A stretch of DNA of 18,616 nucleotides from a virus (Duplodnaviria > Heunggongvirae > Uroviricota > Caudoviricetes). Below, in pieces: positions 5,733-11,861 of this stretch. The notes beneath the pieces were generated by a model. The model did not search any database and was not told the origin of the DNA. It worked only from the letters and a program-made list of their open reading frames with translations. Each line of letters opens with the position of its first letter. Within the stretch, counting starts at the first letter, position 1. Where the stretch lies: IMG/VR virus record IMGVR_UViG_2711768037_000018, positions 1 through 18,616 of that record; one strand, written 5' to 3'. The translations under genes and the position numbers were made by a program.

Positions 5733-7169
5733 TCAGAATCCTCCTTTCTTCTTGGACTGCGGTTCCTCACGTTCACGGCGGCGCATTTCAGCAGACTGTT
5801 GGTCTGTGTCATAAATAGCGCCATTTGCCTGAATGCAATACACCGTGCCGGTATTGCCATGACGATTGAGGCGAAGGATTAGTTCGGTTTCACCAGGAGG
5901 AACGCTGTCATCAAAAGCACCTTCACGATGGATCCCCACCCAATAATCGCAATCCTGTTCAATCTGCCCTGTATCTCGTGAGTCACTTGGTAATGGGCGT
6001 TTATTGGTTCGGCTTTCCAGTGCGCGGTTAAGCTGTGTCAGAAGCACAACAACGCAATCAAGCTCTTTGGCAAGGTTCTTCAGTCCTTTGGTGATCATGC
6101 CGTAAGCAAGGTCGTTGCGATCGGCCTTTTCAGCGGTCATTAGTGTCAGGTAATCGACCAGAATCATGCCAACACATCCTTTTTCTCGCTTGATTCGACG
6201 GCTTTCGCTGACGATTTGAGCCAGAGATAATCCCGGCGTGTCGTCGATGTAAAGCAGGTCGATTTCACTCAAGCGATTGGCTGTTTCGATCGCCCTGTTG
6301 AAGTCACCATCGTAATCACCCTGATAGCCGTCATCAGCGTCATTTGTCGCCGGAAGGTAAAAAATATTCGGGTTAACACCTGACTTCTGTCCTACCAGTT
6401 TTTCCAGTATCTGGTCACCTGGCATTTCAAGGCTGAACATCAGAGCGGGCTTTTTCTCATGCACTGCGCAGTTGATTGCCATCTGGCTGTATAGGGTTGT
6501 CTTGCCCATCTTAGGGCGAGCGCCAATGACAAACAGAGAGCCTTTCACCAGGCCTTTCGGTGACAGCATCCTGTCCAGCGATGGGATCCCTGTGCTCATT
6601 CCTCGTTGTTCGCCTGACGGGTCAAATCGCTTCTCAAGGTCGCTAACCCAGTCTTCCATGACCTCACCAAATGAGCGAAGGCCGCGACGCGATCCGGTTT
6701 TTGCATGGTCTGTCAGTTGCGTGAAAATCGCCTGAATAGCTTCGTACTTCTGCGTTGCAGTCATTCCGTTGCGGGAATAGAGCAATTCCGTCGCTTCAGT
6801 CATGCGGTTGATGGCGTAGCGTTCCATTGCGGTTTCACGAACCTGCATTGCATAGGCAACGATGTTTGCTGCGCTTGGCGTGTTCTTTGCGATCTCAGCG
6901 ATATAAGCAAAACCTCCAACAGACGCCGTTAACGATTTGCGCTCCAGTTCATCGAAAAGCGTCAGCCCATCTACTGGCTTTTGCTCCCGGTGCATTCTGG
7001 TTATTTCTTCGAAAAGGATTTTGTGTGGTCGGCTGTAAAATGAATCAGGCTTCAGCATCGCCAGAACTTTCCGGACGCGCTCACTGCTGTCATCATCCAG
7101 AAGCAATCCACCAATCACCGCCTGCTCTGCCTCGATGCTATGGGGCGGCGCATAAAAATTATCGGTCAT
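5733..7169 (-). CDS. Replicative DNA helicase, DnaB family (P22 gene 12-like)
   Basis: About 478 aa from ATG 7167-7169; Walker A GARPKMGKTT, DnaB-like N-terminal domain (SIEAEQAVIGGLL) and RecA-like core; the track start at 7184 is a GTG extension. Confidence 0.9.
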   Translation of the reverse strand: MTDNFYAPPHSIEAEQAVIGGLLLDDDSSERVRKVLAMLKPDSFYSRPHKILFEEITRMHREQKPVDGLTLFDELERKSLTASVGGFAYIAEIAKNTPSAANIVAYAMQVRETAMERYAINRMTEATELLYSRNGMTATQKYEAIQAIFTQLTDHAKTGSRRGLRSFGEVMEDWVSDLEKRFDPSGEQRGMSTGIPSLDRMLSPKGLVKGSLFVIGARPKMGKTTLYSQMAINCAVHEKKPALMFSLEMPGDQILEKLVGQKSGVNPNIFYLPATNDADDGYQGDYDGDFNRAIETANRLSEIDLLYIDDTPGLSLAQIVSESRRIKREKGCVGMILVDYLTLMTAEKADRNDLAYGMITKGLKNLAKELDCVVVLLTQLNRALESRTNKRPLPSDSRDTGQIEQDCDYWVGIHREGAFDDSVPPGETELILRLNRHGNTGTVYCIQANGAIYDTDQQSAEMRRREREEPQSKKKGGF

Positions 7170-8049
7170 CGTGTTCACCCTCACGAACTTTCAGGTAGGT
7201 ATTATCGTTAAGCAGGAAATCAAATCCCTTTTTGTGCCAGACGGTTCCGCGTTGATGGTTTGGGCGCTCTTCGAACATCCATCGGCAATTTTCGCCTACG
7301 TAGCTCAAATAATTTCTCCAGTCCTGCATCGTGAACCCATGCCCGTCAAGCTGGCGGGTTATCACTCCGGCTTTGCGCCAGAACGTTCGGATCTGGTTTT
7401 TACGCTTGTCATTCAGTGCGCGGATTCTTGGCGCTTCAGGAAGGATTTCGTGGTAAGCATCGACAACATCCTGACAGCTAACGGAAGGTTTTTTCTTGTC
7501 AGACTTTTTGTCTGCTGTGGCACTCTCTAATACGTCAGTATTAGAGATATTATTTATATTATTGTTTATGGACAACCGTTGGACAACCGTTGGACAATCT
7601 CCGCTGAGAGCCGCGCCATTACTGGTGTTTGCGTTGGACAACCGTTGGACAACCGTTGGACAATTTTTTGCCTGAAAATCGTCATATTTAACGATTGTAA
7701 ACAGGCTAAATTTCTTCCCCATCGCGCAAATATTAAGCATCCCTTTCGACTCAAAAGTCCGTAATAAGCTCCGAACTTTGTTGTCGGGGATGAATGTTTC
7801 TCTGACCAGCGACGGGCGTCCAGTTATCATCTGACCGCGATCAACAGTTATCGGACCGATATCCGTATTGACGACAGTAGATTCGTGATTAGCCTTGAGG
7901 ATTAAGTGAAGCCAAAGATGTACTGCCTGAGAGTCCTTATAGAGCCTGCTGTCCATAAACTGGCGGTGTATAGAGACATACCCCATACTGGATGCCTCCT
8001 GATGTTGTACAGGGTTATGCCTGTAATCAGCTAACTTAACGACGCCCAT
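7159..8049 (-). CDS. Replication initiation protein (lambda O / P22 gp18 functional analogue) containing the origin iterons; alternative start ATG 7984-7986
   Basis: Lies between cII and the helicase; iteron cluster plus AT-rich tract in the middle of the ORF (translated as repeated CPTVVQRLS), as in lambda ori within O; both candidate ATGs have AGGAG-type SDs. Confidence 0.8.
   Translation of the reverse strand: MGVVKLADYRHNPVQHQEASSMGYVSIHRQFMDSRLYKDSQAVHLWLHLILKANHESTVVNTDIGPITVDRGQMITGRPSLVRETFIPDNKVRSLLRTFESKGMLNICAMGKKFSLFTIVKYDDFQAKNCPTVVQRLSNANTSNGAALSGDCPTVVQRLSINNNINNISNTDVLESATADKKSDKKKPSVSCQDVVDAYHEILPEAPRIRALNDKRKNQIRTFWRKAGVITRQLDGHGFTMQDWRNYLSYVGENCRWMFEERPNHQRGTVWHKKGFDFLLNDNTYLKVREGEHDDR
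7521..7663 (-). repeat. Putative replication origin: two clusters of 11-bp direct repeats (GGACAACCGTT x2.5 each) followed on the gene strand by an AT-rich tract
   Basis: Repeats at 7570-7597 and 7636-7663; AT-rich 7521-7569; arrangement mirrors lambda ori (iterons then AT-rich region inside the initiator gene). Confidence 0.7.
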
Positions 8050-8231: not shown

Positions 8232-8510
8232 TCAGGCCTCGAAGAATTCGCCGTTCTTCGGGGCTTTTTCTTTTGTCAGCATTCTGGCTACTTTCTTAGC
8301 CAGTTCCGCCAACTCCTCGTCTTCAACACCCCACTCCAGCACAGCCAGAAGCATGGCCATCTTTGGGATAAAGCTGTCTTTCCATCGCGAAATTTGCGAT
8401 TCATTGATCCCTAATGCATCAGCAACCTTTCGCTGACCACGTACAGCAATTCGATTTAGGATGTTGCTTGTAATTGCATTCGCTTTCTTGCGAGTACTTG
8501 TAAGTTGCAT
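8232..8510 (-). CDS. cII: CII transcriptional activator
   Basis: 92 aa from internal ATG: MQLTSTRKKANAITSNILNRIAVRGQRKVADALGINESQISRWKDSFIPKMAMLLAVLEWGV..., aligns with lambda CII (..SQISRWKRDWIPKFSMLLAVLEWGV..). Confidence 0.85.
   Translation of the reverse strand: MQLTSTRKKANAITSNILNRIAVRGQRKVADALGINESQISRWKDSFIPKMAMLLAVLEWGVEDEELAELAKKVARMLTKEKAPKNGEFFEA
8236..8274 (+). terminator. Intrinsic terminator on the strand antisense to the cII 3' end (oop-RNA-like terminator)
   Basis: Plus strand: GCCTCGAAGAA-TTCGCCG-TTCTTCGGGGC (11-bp stem with one G-U) followed by TTTTTCTTTT; sits just inside the cII C-terminal codons, as lambda oop does. Confidence 0.6.
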
Positions 8511-8520
8511 ATGTAAGTAT
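8488..8520 (+). promoter_or_regulatory. pRE-like CII-dependent promoter (TTGC-N6-TTGT at -35, AAGTAT -10)
   Basis: TTGCGAGTACTTGTAAGTTGCATATGTAAGTATTTCC closely resembles lambda pRE (TTGCGTTTGTTTGCACGAACCATATGTAAGTATTTCC) as recalled; reads toward cro/cI. Confidence 0.55.
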
Positions 8521-8568
8521 TTCCTTAACAAATAAGAAGTTATGCGCACCAACTGATGCGCGTTGTAT

Positions 8569-8612
8569 TCCCGCATTTCGGCGGGAATGAGGACCATGAC
8601 TGTTAAAGAGCG
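8569..8612 (-). promoter_or_regulatory. nutR: boxA (CGCTCTTTAACA) + boxB hairpin (TCCCGC-CGAAAT-GCGGGA)
   Basis: Between cro and cII on the minus strand; boxA matches the consensus; boxB is identical to the hairpin in nutL. Confidence 0.7.
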
Positions 8613-8619
8613 GTGTTAC

Positions 8620-8844
8620 TTATGCTGCCTGATTCGGTTTTGGAAACAGGTGTGGCAAATCGGGGCGAATTTCGTAAGCCTTGATCTGCCCTCCAGTGGC
8701 GTTAACGATGGCGGTAACTTTCTCTGGAGAGACCAACCCGCCTTTCAGCCATTTGTGTACTGCTGGCTGCGTTACACCACACTTGTCGGCAAGGCGCTTT
8801 TGGCTACCGACAATTTTCAAGGCTCGTTGAATTACTAAATTCAT
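8620..8844 (-). CDS. cro: Cro-like repressor, YdaS-type HTH (74 aa from third in-frame ATG)
   Basis: HTH segment QKRLADKCGVTQPAVHKWLKG and ...ATGGQIKAYEIRPDL resemble the YdaS/Cro family; divergent from cI across an operator region; AGAGG 7 nt upstream of the chosen ATG. Confidence 0.8.
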   Translation of the reverse strand: MNLVIQRALKIVGSQKRLADKCGVTQPAVHKWLKGGLVSPEKVTAIVNATGGQIKAYEIRPDLPHLFPKPNQAA

Positions 8845-8877
8845 GAGCATACCTCTTGTGGTCATTACTTATAACCA

Positions 8878-8906
8878 AAGATAACTCAAGTTATAAAAAA
8901 TAGCAA
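8878..8906 (-). promoter_or_regulatory. pR promoter (TTGCTA-N17-TATCTT on minus strand)
   Basis: -10 overlaps operator 8881-8894, -35 abuts operator 8906-8919, as with lambda pR/OR1/OR2. Confidence 0.5.
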
Positions 8907-8943
8907 TAACCTTTGTTATTTTACTTTGGATAACCGTAGTTAT
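8881..8943. promoter_or_regulatory. OR operator cluster: three 14-bp inverted repeats ATAAC-N4-GTTAT
   Basis: ATAACTCAAGTTAT (8881-8894), ATAACCTTTGTTAT (8906-8919), ATAACCGTAGTTAT (8930-8943), centres about 24 bp apart between divergent cro and cI; pRM-like -10 TAGATT at 8943-8948 precedes the cI ATG by about 7 nt. Confidence 0.65.
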
Positions 8944-8955
8944 AGATTTGTGAGT

Positions 8956-9663
8956 ATGAAAACATTCGCAGAAAGACTAAATGCAGCCATGAGCTCAGCA
9001 GGGGTATCACAATCACAGCTTGCTGACATGGTTGGAATATCTCAGCCAGCCATACAGAAGATGTCGTCCGGTAAAACAAACGGATCTCGCAAGATGGTTG
9101 AATTAGCCAATGCTTTAAAAGTGCGTCCTGAATGGCTTAGTTCTGGTATTGGTGAAATGAGGGATGGTGCACATGAAGAACCATCCAATGTCCGTGAGTC
9201 ATCTTTAAAAGCTGTGGTATGGGAAGACATTAAAAGAAACGATGACGAGTTTGTTGCGTTGCCTCTTCTTAACGTTTCGCTTTCAGCTGGAAGCGGTAGC
9301 TGCGAGCTAGAGGAATCATCGGAGTTCTCTTTGGTTTTCAGAAAGCACTATCTGAAAAAGATGGGAGTATCAGAAAGATCAGCCAAGCTAGTTAGGGTTG
9401 TAGGGCAAAGCATGGAACCAACGCTTCACGATGGCGATGTTGTTGGTGTTAACACGCAAGATACCACAATCAGAGATGGTAAAACCTACGCTATTTGCCA
9501 GTCTGATTTGTTACGAGTAAAAACATTAATCGCCACCCCTACATCGGTGATAATCAGATCAATAAATCGCGAAGAGTACCCGGATGAAGTAATGGATAGA
9601 GATGAATTTCATGAAACCGTAAGGATTATTGGCAGAGTATTCTGGTCGTCTCATAGTTGGTAA
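8956..9663 (+). CDS. cI: CI-type prophage repressor (N-terminal HTH + C-terminal S24 LexA-like autopeptidase domain)
   Basis: 235 aa from ATG 8956 (track start 8926 is a TTG extension); HTH region SQSQLADMVGISQPAIQKM; C-terminal GQSMEPT (catalytic Ser) and downstream Lys; apparently leaderless start like lambda cI from pRM. Confidence 0.9.
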   Translation: MKTFAERLNAAMSSAGVSQSQLADMVGISQPAIQKMSSGKTNGSRKMVELANALKVRPEWLSSGIGEMRDGAHEEPSNVRESSLKAVVWEDIKRNDDEFVALPLLNVSLSAGSGSCELEESSEFSLVFRKHYLKKMGVSERSAKLVRVVGQSMEPTLHDGDVVGVNTQDTTIRDGKTYAICQSDLLRVKTLIATPTSVIIRSINREEYPDEVMDRDEFHETVRIIGRVFWSSHSW

Positions 9664-9703
9664 CCGATAATCAGAAGAAGACTTACGGAAGTGCGGAGGG
9701 ATA

Positions 9704-10000
9704 ATGGAATTTCTGATAGTTTTTGTTGTTGTTTTGGTCATCATTCTTTTTGTTTTGCTAAGCATTAGCAAAAAGCTATCTCAAATGATTGAACATAGCT
9801 CTAATCGCGCAAAAGAAGAAGAGCATCTAATTGATATAAAAGAGATTCTCTCTGATATAAAAATCACATTAGATGAAATAAAATACACAACAGATCTAAT
9901 TGAACAGTATAAAATACCAACCCCAAACGAGAGAAAAGCAATAGATCAATATCGTATTGACTTAGAAATCGACGAAATGCTAAGCAAAAGAAAAGACTAA
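9704..10000 (+). CDS. Hypothetical single-pass membrane protein (98 aa), AT-rich, co-oriented directly downstream of cI
   Basis: N-terminal TM helix EFLIVFVVVLVIILFVLLSI then charged helical region; GGAGGG SD; strongly AT-rich codon usage compared with neighbours; followed by an intrinsic terminator. Confidence 0.7.
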   Translation: MEFLIVFVVVLVIILFVLLSISKKLSQMIEHSSNRAKEEEHLIDIKEILSDIKITLDEIKYTTDLIEQYKIPTPNERKAIDQYRIDLEIDEMLSKRKD

Positions 10001-10004
10001 AAAC

Positions 10005-10034
10005 ACCCGGCCTCAGCGCCGGGTTTTCTTTTCC
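10005..10034 (+). terminator. Intrinsic terminator ending the cI transcription unit
   Basis: CCCGGC-CTCAGC-GCCGGG hairpin followed by TTTTCTTTTCC. Confidence 0.7.
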
Positions 10035-10197: not shown

Positions 10198-10239
10198 ATA
10201 AATTAGGTTATTGACCACACCTATAACCTAGGTTATCTT
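10198..10239 (+). promoter_or_regulatory. pL promoter with OL operators (TTGACC-N17-TATCTT; operators ATAAATTAGGTTAT and ATAACCTAGGTTAT)
   Basis: Same ATAAC-N4-GTTAT operator type as OR; perfect palindrome at 10223-10236 overlaps spacer/-10; located upstream of nutL and N. Confidence 0.5.
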
Positions 10240-10433: not shown

Positions 10434-10706
10434 ATGACAGTAGTCATTACATATCTGGCTGACGATAACGCCAGAAATCGCCGCAGAGCACGCAGACAGG
10501 CTCAACGTGAACAGGCAATGCAAGAGCAGCGACTGGCACGAAAAATTGCGCTAAAGCTCTCTGGTTGCGTCAGAGCAGATAAAGCAGCATCACTCGGAAG
10601 CCTTCGCTGCAAGAAGGCAGATGAATGCAGTGGAAGTATTTGCCTGCCAAACGTAGCCATTTACGCGGCAGGCTACCGGAAATCAAAACAACTGACGGCG
10701 AGGTAA
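10434..10706 (+). CDS. N: N-type antitermination protein (P22 gene 24-like)
   Basis: 90 aa; arginine-rich motif DNARNRRRARRQAQREQ; C-terminus LPNVAIYAAGYRKSKQLTAR resembles the P22 gp24 C-terminus as recalled; GGAGG SD. Confidence 0.85.
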   Translation: MTVVITYLADDNARNRRRARRQAQREQAMQEQRLARKIALKLSGCVRADKAASLGSLRCKKADECSGSICLPNVAIYAAGYRKSKQLTAR

Positions 10707-10996: not shown

Positions 10997-11467
10997 ATGA
11001 CAATATCATGGAGCGTACCTTTTCCTGAATCAGAAACTGAACATGATGGAATGCCTGTTTTCTGGAGATTCCAGGCGACAGTTGAAGAAGATGGAATCAA
11101 AATATTCGCACTTCAATATATAGCTTTTCATCAGACAGAGCATTATGCATGGTTGGTTCCTGCGCATTGGATTGTTAATTTTAAACCAGCACCAAATCAG
11201 TGGTTACAGGAATGGAAACAAAAGAGAAATAGATATGCAATTAAGAAAGTAGCAAAAAATGCAGAAAGATCTTTTGCATTCCCAACGAAGAAACTTGCCA
11301 TTGAAAGTTTATTGCGCCGGAAGAAATACCATTTAATGAGAATCAAACAAGATTTGGCTGTTGTATCAACTCTTGTTGATGGGATGAAGAATATTGATAC
11401 ATCAACACCAGATATTGAATATAACTTTGGACACAACCAAGAAACAGAAAACTGGGTGTTTTATTAG
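10997..11467 (+). CDS. Hypothetical protein (156 aa), AT-rich
   Basis: Clean ORF with GAGGTGAG SD; AT-rich composition; no recognised motif; occupies the ral/sieB position between N and cIII. Confidence 0.65.
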   Translation: MTISWSVPFPESETEHDGMPVFWRFQATVEEDGIKIFALQYIAFHQTEHYAWLVPAHWIVNFKPAPNQWLQEWKQKRNRYAIKKVAKNAERSFAFPTKKLAIESLLRRKKYHLMRIKQDLAVVSTLVDGMKNIDTSTPDIEYNFGHNQETENWVFY

Positions 11468-11612: not shown

Positions 11613-11861
11613 ATGATAAAAACTGATTATCCTGCAGAACTTAAACAAAAAGTAATAACAGCAATTAAATGCTCTTTTATCTCATGTCGTACAGATGAAG
11701 AACGACATGTCGTTGAGTGTGCAATTGTCGAGTTTCTCACAGCGATGGAATTTACCGCTGCAGAATCAATAGATGTATTAAAGCAATCAGACGGAAATGA
11801 TATTGAAACGGATGATGTTATTGACCGACTAATAAAATCATTCGAAGAAGAAATAGAGTAG
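11613..11861 (+). CDS. Hypothetical small acidic protein (82 aa)
   Basis: GGAG SD; about 20 Asp/Glu versus 8 Lys/Arg; followed by a GC-rich hairpin (about 11862-11885). Confidence 0.6.
   Translation: MIKTDYPAELKQKVITAIKCSFISCRTDEERHVVECAIVEFLTAMEFTAAESIDVLKQSDGNDIETDDVIDRLIKSFEEEIE

What the first reader, a model, noticed from the sequence alone, without database searches (positions are those of the whole stretch)
9704..10034. AT-rich membrane-protein gene co-transcribed with cI (rexAB-position moron)
A 98-aa single-pass membrane protein with sharply AT-rich codon usage sits directly after cI on the same strand and is closed by a strong intrinsic terminator. This is the position where lambda carries rexAB and other prophages carry abortive-infection or superinfection-exclusion genes expressed in the lysogen. 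Its composition suggests recent acquisition and it has no family I recognise, making it a candidate lysogen-expressed defence or exclusion factor.
Basis: inference. Interest (0 to 1): 0.65.

Follow-up and report, generated by a model that had tools for sequence, protein, structure and literature searches.

The report
Small membrane gene riding behind cI
A real but uncharacterised 98-residue membrane-anchored protein sits in the accessory-gene slot directly behind the repressor of an E. coli lambda-like prophage, which makes it a plausible, still untested, candidate for protecting the lysogen against other phages.

Summary
ORF 9704-10000 (+) lies 40 nt after cI and has a GGAGG ribosome site. 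It is 30% GC against 43% for cI. A 7-bp GC hairpin with a T-run (10005-10033) follows it, and it lies between the OR and OL operators, upstream of pL and N. It is a real gene: dN/dS is about 0.17 against Citrobacter orthologues. It belongs to a small family (PHROG 18389, function unknown) with an N-terminal anchor helix and a conserved acidic C-terminal helical hairpin carrying the motif IKYxTDxIExYKLPxxxERxxID. Charge distribution in all 19 members predicts N-out/C-in. Family members sit 1-40 nt behind cI in eight loci with at least six repressor types, and behind an Mnt-type repressor in two more. Prophages of the same immunity type carry other cargo in this slot (DUF3024 = PADLOC candidate PDC-S43, and a PDC-M24-like pair) or none, so the gene is accessory. 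It has no homology to Rex, to known exclusion proteins or to any PADLOC, Pfam or PDB entry. A defence or exclusion role is inferred from position only, and expression was not tested. The low GC is conserved at dS about 0.8, so it does not indicate recent acquisition. Verdict: a solid, moderately interesting candidate.

The parts
8881..8943 (.). OR: three operator palindromes ATAAC-N4-GTTAT (8881-8894, 8906-8919, 8930-8943) between cro and cI
   Evidence: 5 matches in the window against 0.4 expected
8956..9663 (+). cI-type repressor (HTH_3 + Peptidase_S24). The mechanical ORF starts at TTG 8926, but RefSeq homologues start at ATG 8956, and the third operator overlaps 8926
9664..9703 (+). 40-nt cI-ORF98 spacer with Shine-Dalgarno GGAGGG at 9695-9700. 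It holds no terminator-like hairpin
9704..10000 (+). ORF98: 98-aa protein with an N-terminal membrane anchor (residues 3-21, nt 9710-9766), a variable linker (about residues 27-42) and a conserved acidic helical hairpin (residues 43-98, nt 9830-9997)
10005..10033 (.). Intrinsic terminator (tIMM-like): 7-bp GC stem at 10005-10024 plus a T-run. It is flanked by an A-run, so it is bidirectional. Conserved after the gene in 7 of 8 loci
10198..10239 (+). OL operators (10198-10211, 10223-10236) overlapping a pL-like promoter TTGACC-17-TATCTT (10211-10239)
10434..10706 (+). N antiterminator (Pfam N_peptide, E 1e-15). It marks the far side of the cI-N slot

Best explanation
ORF98 is a genuine accessory (moron-type) gene of the prophage immunity module. 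It is most likely transcribed with cI from pRM in the lysogen (and from pRE during establishment), translated from its own strong ribosome site, and its transcript ends at the tIMM-like hairpin just before OL/pL. The product is a bitopic inner-membrane protein. The N-terminal helix is only an anchor. The short N-terminus faces the periplasm, and the conserved acidic helical hairpin (IKYxTDxIExYKLPxxxERxxID) sits on the cytoplasmic face. I propose that it protects the lysogen from superinfecting phages. The proposed mechanism is protein-protein binding at the inner face of the membrane: either blocking a host inner-membrane component that incoming phages need, or capturing an early or ejected phage protein. 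Forming a pore itself seems less likely. Shown: gene reality, architecture, position, accessory status, and conserved linkage to lysogeny repressors. Inferred: co-transcription, topology, the defence role and the binding mechanism.
For: The gene is under purifying selection, strongest in the C-terminal domain. The architecture and motif are conserved down to 24% identity. All 19 members have no K/R before the membrane helix and 1-3 K/R just after it, and an acidic C-domain with pI 4.2-5.4. The helix is conserved only in hydrophobicity and contains no charged residue, which suggests an anchor. The gene sits 1-40 nt behind cI in the window and in L002, L004, L006, L037, L038, L044, L045 and L048, with at least six different repressor DNA-binding domains. 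In L046 and L047 it follows an Arc/Mnt-type repressor. A terminator follows in 7 of 8 loci. Within E. coli, cro-OR-cI-ORF98-terminator-OL moves as one mosaic block. The slot is a cargo slot: same-immunity prophages carry DUF3024 (PADLOC PDC-S43, E 1.5e-41) plus PDC-M24A/B-like genes, or DUF3024 plus another gene, and one related prophage has nothing on that strand. Published precedent for defence genes in this slot: rexAB in lambda and bstA in BTP1, with the cI-N region described as a mosaic hotspot (PMC8585504), and a BsuBI restriction-modification system beside cI in an O104:H4 Stx phage (PMC5977221).
Against: No experiment or transcript data were available. There is no hit to any PADLOC model, and none to a PHROG annotated as exclusion or defence. 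The fold is a generic helical hairpin, so structure searches say nothing. Small prophage membrane proteins also do other jobs. The most distant homologues (Pseudomonas, Pelagicoccus, metagenomes) sit among small unknown genes with no repressor and no recognisable defence neighbours. PDC-S43 and PDC-M24 are themselves only candidate systems. Everything between cI and OL is inherited with the immunity module, so part of the linkage to cI is forced by geometry.
Confidence: 0.45

Rival explanations
1. It modulates the prophage's own switch or induction, as proposed for RexA/RexB and for 434 Hex. A membrane-tethered factor made with cI would tune repressor stability, FtsH/HflKC or other protease activity, or the commitment to lysis.
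For: It is made from the same predicted transcript as cI and is also expected from pRE during establishment (gene order). Other genes co-expressed with cI have such roles: 434 Hex (PMC3564112 abstract) and RexA/RexB (bioRxiv 10.1101/2021.04.19.439022 abstract). The cytoplasmic orientation suits an intracellular regulatory target.
Against: The gene is paired with at least six unrelated repressor specificities and two unrelated repressor C-terminal domains, and also with an Mnt-type repressor. Same-immunity prophages do without it or replace it with unrelated cargo. Distant homologues occur away from any repressor. None of this fits a function tied to a particular switch.
Confidence: 0.15
2. It is a lysogenic-conversion or host-fitness factor unrelated to phages, for example tolerance of envelope or membrane stress, or a colonisation trait, in the manner of bor and lom.
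For: It is a lysogen-expressed, AT-rich membrane protein. It is common in Stx1 prophages of O26:H11 and in strain H19. Distant members lie in chromosomal contexts that are not phage-like, one of them next to a sigma54-type AAA+ activator.
Against: There is no similarity to PspB or to any envelope-stress family in Pfam or NCBIfam. The cargo that replaces it in sister prophages consists of defence candidates.
Confidence: 0.2
3. It is a membrane toxin: either a triggered abortive-infection effector that oligomerises into a pore, like RexB or a holin, or an addiction-type toxin.
For: It is a small, very hydrophobic N-terminal helix followed by coiled-coil-like helices that could drive oligomerisation. 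RexB in the same slot acts on membrane potential (PMC8585504).
Against: It has a single helix with no polar or charged residues, and that helix is conserved only in hydrophobicity, while the selected part is the soluble hairpin. No partner sensor or antitoxin gene lies in the slot. Constitutive expression with cI would require tight post-translational control.
Confidence: 0.12
4. It is not a functional gene: a chance ORF in AT-rich spacer DNA, or decaying cargo.
For: There are a few truncated variants lacking the membrane helix (P0010; strain 3CM). The gene is unannotated in the one INPHARED phage record.
Against: dN/dS is 0.16-0.18. A full-length PHROG match has E 5e-62. Homologues exist down to 24% identity with invariant Y69, P72, D81 and E88. 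It has a strong Shine-Dalgarno sequence.
Confidence: 0.02

Closest known systems
Lambda rexA-rexB (abortive infection system in the cI-pL slot)
   Same: Same position and predicted expression logic: downstream of cI, inside the immunity region, ending at a terminator before OL/pL. One membrane component is involved.
   Different: ORF98 is a single 98-aa gene with one membrane helix. Rex is a two-gene sensor plus a multi-pass RexB channel. There is no sequence similarity in the PHROGs, Pfam or PADLOC scans.
BstA of Salmonella prophage BTP1 (PMC8585504)
   Same: A single-gene defence encoded directly downstream of the prophage repressor. It is conserved in that position across diverse prophages and followed by its own Rho-independent terminator.
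   Different: BstA is a large soluble DNA-associated protein with an aba self-immunity element. ORF98 is small and membrane-anchored and shows no homology. No aba-like element was looked for.
Small membrane superinfection-exclusion proteins (HK97 gp15, T4 Imm and Sp, P22 SieA) - from my own knowledge and PMC10883804, PMC11436027
   Same: Small, prophage- or phage-encoded inner-membrane proteins that act without partners encoded next to them. HK97 gp15 is likewise a moron with a single helix.
   Different: There is no sequence relation: no hit to any PHROG annotated as exclusion. The conserved domain of ORF98 is predicted to be cytoplasmic. The genomic slot also differs, since gp15 lies among tail genes.
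PADLOC candidates PDC-S43 (DUF3024) and PDC-M24
   Same: They occupy exactly the same slot behind the same-immunity cI in sister E. coli prophages.
   Different: They are unrelated proteins, and they are themselves only candidate defence systems.
PHROG 18389
   Same: Full-length match, E 5e-62. This is the family that ORF98 belongs to.
   Different: The PHROG has no functional annotation, and only one phage record in INPHARED carries the gene, unannotated.

Membership tests
PHROG 18389 (unknown function) | Full-length profile match | tested here: met
   E 5.2e-62, residues 1-98 against profile positions 1-98 of 98
Lambda RexAB | Location between cI and OL/pL, same strand as cI | tested here: met
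   Gene order with Pfam-confirmed cI and N, plus OR and OL operators
Lambda RexAB | Two genes: RexA sensor plus multi-pass RexB; sequence homology | tested here: not met
   A single ORF fills the slot. It has one hydrophobic segment. There is no Rex hit in Pfam, PHROGs or PADLOC
Lambda RexAB | Exclusion phenotype (for example against T4 rII) with loss of membrane potential | not testable with these tools
   Needs plaque and membrane-potential assays
Known superinfection-exclusion proteins (HK97 gp15, T4 Imm/Sp, P22 SieA/SieB, Cor) | Sequence or profile similarity | tested here: not met
   The only significant PHROG is 18389. No exclusion-annotated PHROG appears at E<=1, and there is no Pfam or NCBIfam hit
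Known superinfection-exclusion proteins | Inner-membrane localisation | tested here: inconclusive
   Predicted only: a hydrophobic helix at residues 3-21 and the charge distribution
Known superinfection-exclusion proteins | Block of DNA entry by a superinfecting phage | not testable with these tools
   Needs infection assays
Moron (accessory gene unit of lambdoid phages; my own knowledge of the Hendrix/Juhala definition) | Present in some but not all closely related phages at the same site | tested here: met
   Same-immunity prophages L040 and L042 carry other genes, and L041 carries none on that strand
Moron | Base composition distinct from its neighbours | tested here: met
   GC 0.30 against 0.43 (cI) and 0.46 (window). 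The same holds in five other loci
Moron | Own terminator | tested here: met
   Hairpin plus T-run at 10005-10033, conserved in 7 of 8 loci
Moron | Own promoter | tested here: inconclusive
   Only one weak promoter-like site (9629-9657, 9 of 12 matches), which is no more than chance gives. The 1-20 nt gaps in other loci argue for read-through from cI
PADLOC-DB v2 defence systems | Profile match to any known or candidate defence protein | tested here: not met
   Only ZorB at E 0.009, 13.5 bits, over the membrane helix
PspB / envelope-stress small membrane proteins | Pfam or NCBIfam family match | tested here: not met
   None of the 19 family members matches at E<=0.05;

The most novel reading that the evidence does not exclude
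The ORF98 family is a previously unrecognised single-gene anti-phage protein that phages have repeatedly wired to their lysogeny repressors, both cI-type and Mnt-type. It would act by a mechanism not yet described for this slot: a cytoplasm-facing, membrane-tethered acidic helical hairpin that intercepts a phage or host component at the site of genome entry. It would be carried by, among others, Stx1 prophages of EHEC O26 and strain H19.
Probability: 0.3. Interest if true: 0.6.

Novelty: new variant of a known kind. Interest (0 to 1): 0.42.

Why it matters
The cI-N slot of lambdoid prophages is where RexAB, BstA and a restriction-modification system are encoded, and the cI promoter is highly transcribed in lysogens (PMC8585504; PMC5977221). 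This work defines a compact, conserved and uncharacterised protein family that is tied to that slot across many immunity types. It identifies the part under selection, a cytoplasmic hairpin with invariant Y69, P72, D81 and E88. It also shows that sister prophages swap the gene for candidate defence genes. Together these make a cheap, direct experiment possible. The gene is present in about 2% of complete E. coli genomes, including Stx1 prophages of O26:H11. A phenotype would therefore bear on phage resistance and on Stx-phage ecology in EHEC. If it is not a defence gene, it would still be an unexplained function expressed with the repressor.

Tried and rejected
Homology searches that gave nothing useful:
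- Pfam, NCBIfam and PADLOC on ORF98, and Pfam on all 19 family members.
- Profile search of PDB sequences.
- Foldseek against PDB and BFVD: zero hits.
- The afdb50 library was not available.

Locus searches:
- The search for related loci with the broad alignment failed because no conserved stretch was found.
- The two genome-contig scans gave only one locus.

Literature:
- No paper mentions the protein accessions, locus tag or PHROG number.
- Searches for expression data on this prophage type found nothing specific.
- The HK97 gp15 paper is not held.

Ideas rejected:
- 'Recently acquired because AT-rich': the low GC is conserved at dS about 0.8.
- An independent promoter for ORF98: the scan is at chance level.
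- Minus-strand ORFs 9559-9771 and 9781-9888 as genes: there is no support for them, and they overlap a plus-strand frame that is under selection.
- PADLOC scans of the neighbours of distant homologues found no defence-island context.

Full report

Yes. The window holds an ATG-initiated ORF of 98 codons at 9704-10000 on the + strand. Pfam scans of the surrounding ORFs confirm a lambdoid immunity region:
- cII at 8232-8597 (-), Phage_CII, E 7e-42
- a Cro-type regulator at 8620-8865 (-)
- a cI-type repressor ending at 9663 (+), HTH_3 plus Peptidase_S24
- an N antiterminator at 10434-10706 (+), N_peptide, E 1e-15

The palindrome ATAAC-N4-GTTAT occurs five times in the window, against 0.4 expected. 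Three copies lie between cro and cI (8881-8943) and two lie at 10198-10236, overlapping a pL-like promoter at 10211-10239. ORF98 therefore lies inside the immunity region, between OR and OL, which is exactly where lambda has rexA-rexB.

The 40-nt spacer after cI carries a GGAGGG ribosome site 3-4 nt before the ATG and no hairpin. Five bases after the stop codon there is a 7-bp, six-G-C hairpin followed by TTTTCTTTT (10005-10033). Its free energy is -13.7 kcal/mol, z = -2.5 against shuffles. An A-run on the other side makes it bidirectional. GC is 0.303 (GC3 0.273), against 0.434 for cI and 0.458 for the window.

The protein has one very hydrophobic segment at residues 3-21 and no other. AlphaFold2 on ten homologues gives a long helix at 2-38, a low-confidence linker, and two helices at 45-68 and 74-96, with mean pLDDT 82.

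**2. Is it a gene?**

Yes. Against three Citrobacter or metagenomic orthologues (73-77% protein identity), dS is 0.74-0.81 and dN is 0.13-0.14. That gives dN/dS of 0.16-0.18, and 0.07-0.10 in the C-terminal domain.

The protein matches PHROG 18389 (unknown function) end to end, E 5e-62. An exhaustive profile search of 1.84 billion representative proteins found 14 further clusters down to 24% identity. All have the same plan: a short N-terminus, one hydrophobic helix, a variable linker, and a conserved motif around I-K-Y-x-T-D-x-I-E-x-Y-K-L-P-x3-E-R-x2-I-D-x6-E. Y69, P72, D81 and E88 are invariant. The family is small. It includes about 190 sequences in the main E. coli cluster, a few in Citrobacter, and rare distant members that include Pseudomonas and Pelagicoccus.

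**3. What is around it elsewhere?**

Within E. coli, the gene is present in 99 of 5,426 complete genomes. These include O26:H11 strain 11368 and strain H19. From my own knowledge, H19 is the source of Stx1 phage H-19B. The gene is also in the Stx1a phage Stx1a_10051, where it is not annotated.

In 31 related loci, the block cro-OR-cI-spacer-ORF98-terminator-OL is 95-100% identical while the replication genes, nutL/N and the pL operon vary. It therefore travels as part of the immunity cassette.

The family is not tied to one repressor. Members sit directly behind cI in L002, L004, L006, L037, L038, L044, L045 and L048, with gaps of 1-20 nt. In two loci the junction reads TAG-T-ATG. These cI proteins have at least six mutually dissimilar DNA-binding domains and two unrelated C-terminal domains. 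A GC hairpin plus T-run follows the gene in 7 of 8 loci.

Two more distant members (L046, L047) lie directly after an Arc/Mnt-type repressor gene (Pfam Arc E 3e-18, Repressor_Mnt E 9e-9) near tail genes. From my own knowledge of P22, Mnt is also a lysogen-expressed maintenance repressor. The recurring feature is thus 'immediately downstream of a lysogeny repressor'.

The most distant members (L043, L049, L050, L051) lie among small unknown genes without a repressor and without PADLOC-recognisable neighbours. The one exception is a sigma54-type AAA+ activator fragment next to L051.

**4. Is it accessory?**

Yes. The same cI at 90% nucleotide identity or more occurs in 113 genomes, against 99 with ORF98. 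Three loci behind cI genes that are diverged from the window's (92-94% and 79% nucleotide identity) were examined:
- STEC299 (cI 92% identical, identical Cro protein) has DUF3024, a DUF6978 protein and a DUF1828 protein in the slot.
- FDAARGOS_944 (cI 94%) has DUF3024 plus a 177-aa protein.
- An O157:H7 prophage with a 79% identical cI has no gene on that strand.

The DUF3024 protein matches the PADLOC candidate PDC-S43 (E 1.5e-41). The other two match PDC-M24A and PDC-M24B (E 4e-7 and 3e-11).

Published work describes the cI-N interval of lambdoid phages as a mosaic hotspot that holds rexAB in lambda and the abortive-infection gene bstA in BTP1. Both are presumed to share the highly active repressor promoter (PMC8585504). 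A BsuBI restriction-modification system lies beside cI in an O104:H4 Stx phage (PMC5977221).

**5. How does it most likely work?**

*Shown:* a conserved bitopic architecture. None of the 19 members has K or R before the helix, and all have 1-3 K/R within 12 residues after it. The C-domain is acidic, pI 4.2-5.4. By the positive-inside rule (established knowledge), this predicts N-out/C-in, which places the conserved hairpin in the cytoplasm. The helix has no charged residues and is conserved only in hydrophobicity, whereas selection is tightest on the hairpin.

*Inferred:* the helix is an anchor, and the hairpin is a protein-binding module held at the inner face of the membrane. The position, the accessory status and the nature of the alternative cargo all point the same way. 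My best estimate (0.45) is a lysogen-expressed exclusion or defence protein that acts by binding a host inner-membrane component or an incoming phage protein. A pore-forming role seems less likely.

*Rivals:* a host-fitness or conversion factor (0.20); a modulator of the prophage's own switch, like Hex or the newer role proposed for Rex (0.15); a triggered or addictive membrane toxin (0.12); a non-functional ORF (0.02).

Nothing here tests expression or phenotype.

**6. Comparison with what is known**

ORF98 works from the same place as RexAB and BstA but is a member of neither. It is one gene with one helix and has no profile similarity to them. It resembles small exclusion proteins such as HK97 gp15 or T4 Imm and Sp only in size and membrane anchoring. 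No exclusion-annotated PHROG matches it, and its conserved domain is predicted to face the cytoplasm. Structure searches returned nothing specific.

It meets the moron criteria of patchy presence, deviant composition and its own terminator. It does not clearly have its own promoter.

**7.

The AT-richness is real but is not evidence of recent acquisition. Orthologues separated by dS of about 0.8 keep 30% GC, and more distant members keep 34-36%, in loci of 46-49% GC.

**8. Verdict**

The positional interpretation (rex-slot moron, co-transcribed with cI) is well supported in silico. The defence role is plausible but unproven.

The kind of element is known. This protein family and its predicted cytoplasm-facing design are not described. 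Interest is moderate (0.42): a specialist would not be surprised to find a moron here, but the family is a clean candidate that can be tested directly.

Noticed in passing
window 7558-7675: There are two clusters of three 11-bp-phased repeats (TGGACAACCGT) inside the O-like replication gene 7159-8049 (-). They look like origin iterons.
   Followed up: partly
window 8926-8956: The mechanical cI ORF starts at TTG 8926, but the third OR palindrome (8930-8943) overlaps it and RefSeq homologues start at ATG 8956. The repressor is therefore probably 235 aa, possibly with a very short leader, as for lambda pRM.
   Followed up: partly
L040 3246-4911; L042 3246-4310: Prophages of the same immunity type carry DUF3024 (PADLOC candidate PDC-S43), alone or with a PDC-M24A/B-like pair (DUF6978 + DUF1828), in the ORF98 slot. 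These are untested defence candidates in a repressor-driven position.
   Followed up: partly
L002 6324-6530 (-), L004/L006 6324-6548 (-), L041 3361-3570 (-): A convergent 67-74-aa ORF lies between the bidirectional terminator and pL in the Citrobacter-type loci and in an O157:H7 prophage. The versions are only weakly related to each other (E 2e-4 over 20 residues), have no Pfam or PADLOC hit, and are absent from the window.
   Followed up: partly
L046 2637-3269; L047 2125-2736: Distant ORF98 homologues sit immediately after an Arc/Mnt-type repressor gene, next to a convergent large ORF (863-893 aa) that I read as transglycosylase-like, with a large tail-fibre-like ORF further upstream. This is a second, independent 'behind a lysogeny repressor' context.
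   Followed up: partly
L051 1-1293: A distant homologue (P0022) lies downstream of a sigma54-type AAA+ activator fragment (PADLOC RtcR/PspF-like, E 1e-114). It is a single short contig, and its significance is unknown.
   Followed up: no
window 11613-11861 (+) and 10997-11467 (+): Two early pL-operon ORFs were scanned. The 82-aa ORF matches PHROG 14587, annotated 'anti-restriction protein' (E 9e-48). The 156-aa ORF matches PHROG 1636 (unknown), and it is present or absent independently of the immunity block in related loci.
   Followed up: no
P0010 (75 aa); E. coli strain 3CM, hit H97: Some variants of ORF98 have the membrane helix replaced or missing while the C-terminal hairpin is intact. 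They may be decaying copies or soluble forms.
   Followed up: no
window 17369-18616 (-): The right end of the window runs into a host oligosaccharide or sucrose MFS transporter gene, so the prophage boundary (att site) lies within roughly 16.5-17.4 kb. No tRNA gene was found in the window. No complete E. coli genome matches 80% or more of the window, which shows that it is a mosaic.
   Followed up: no
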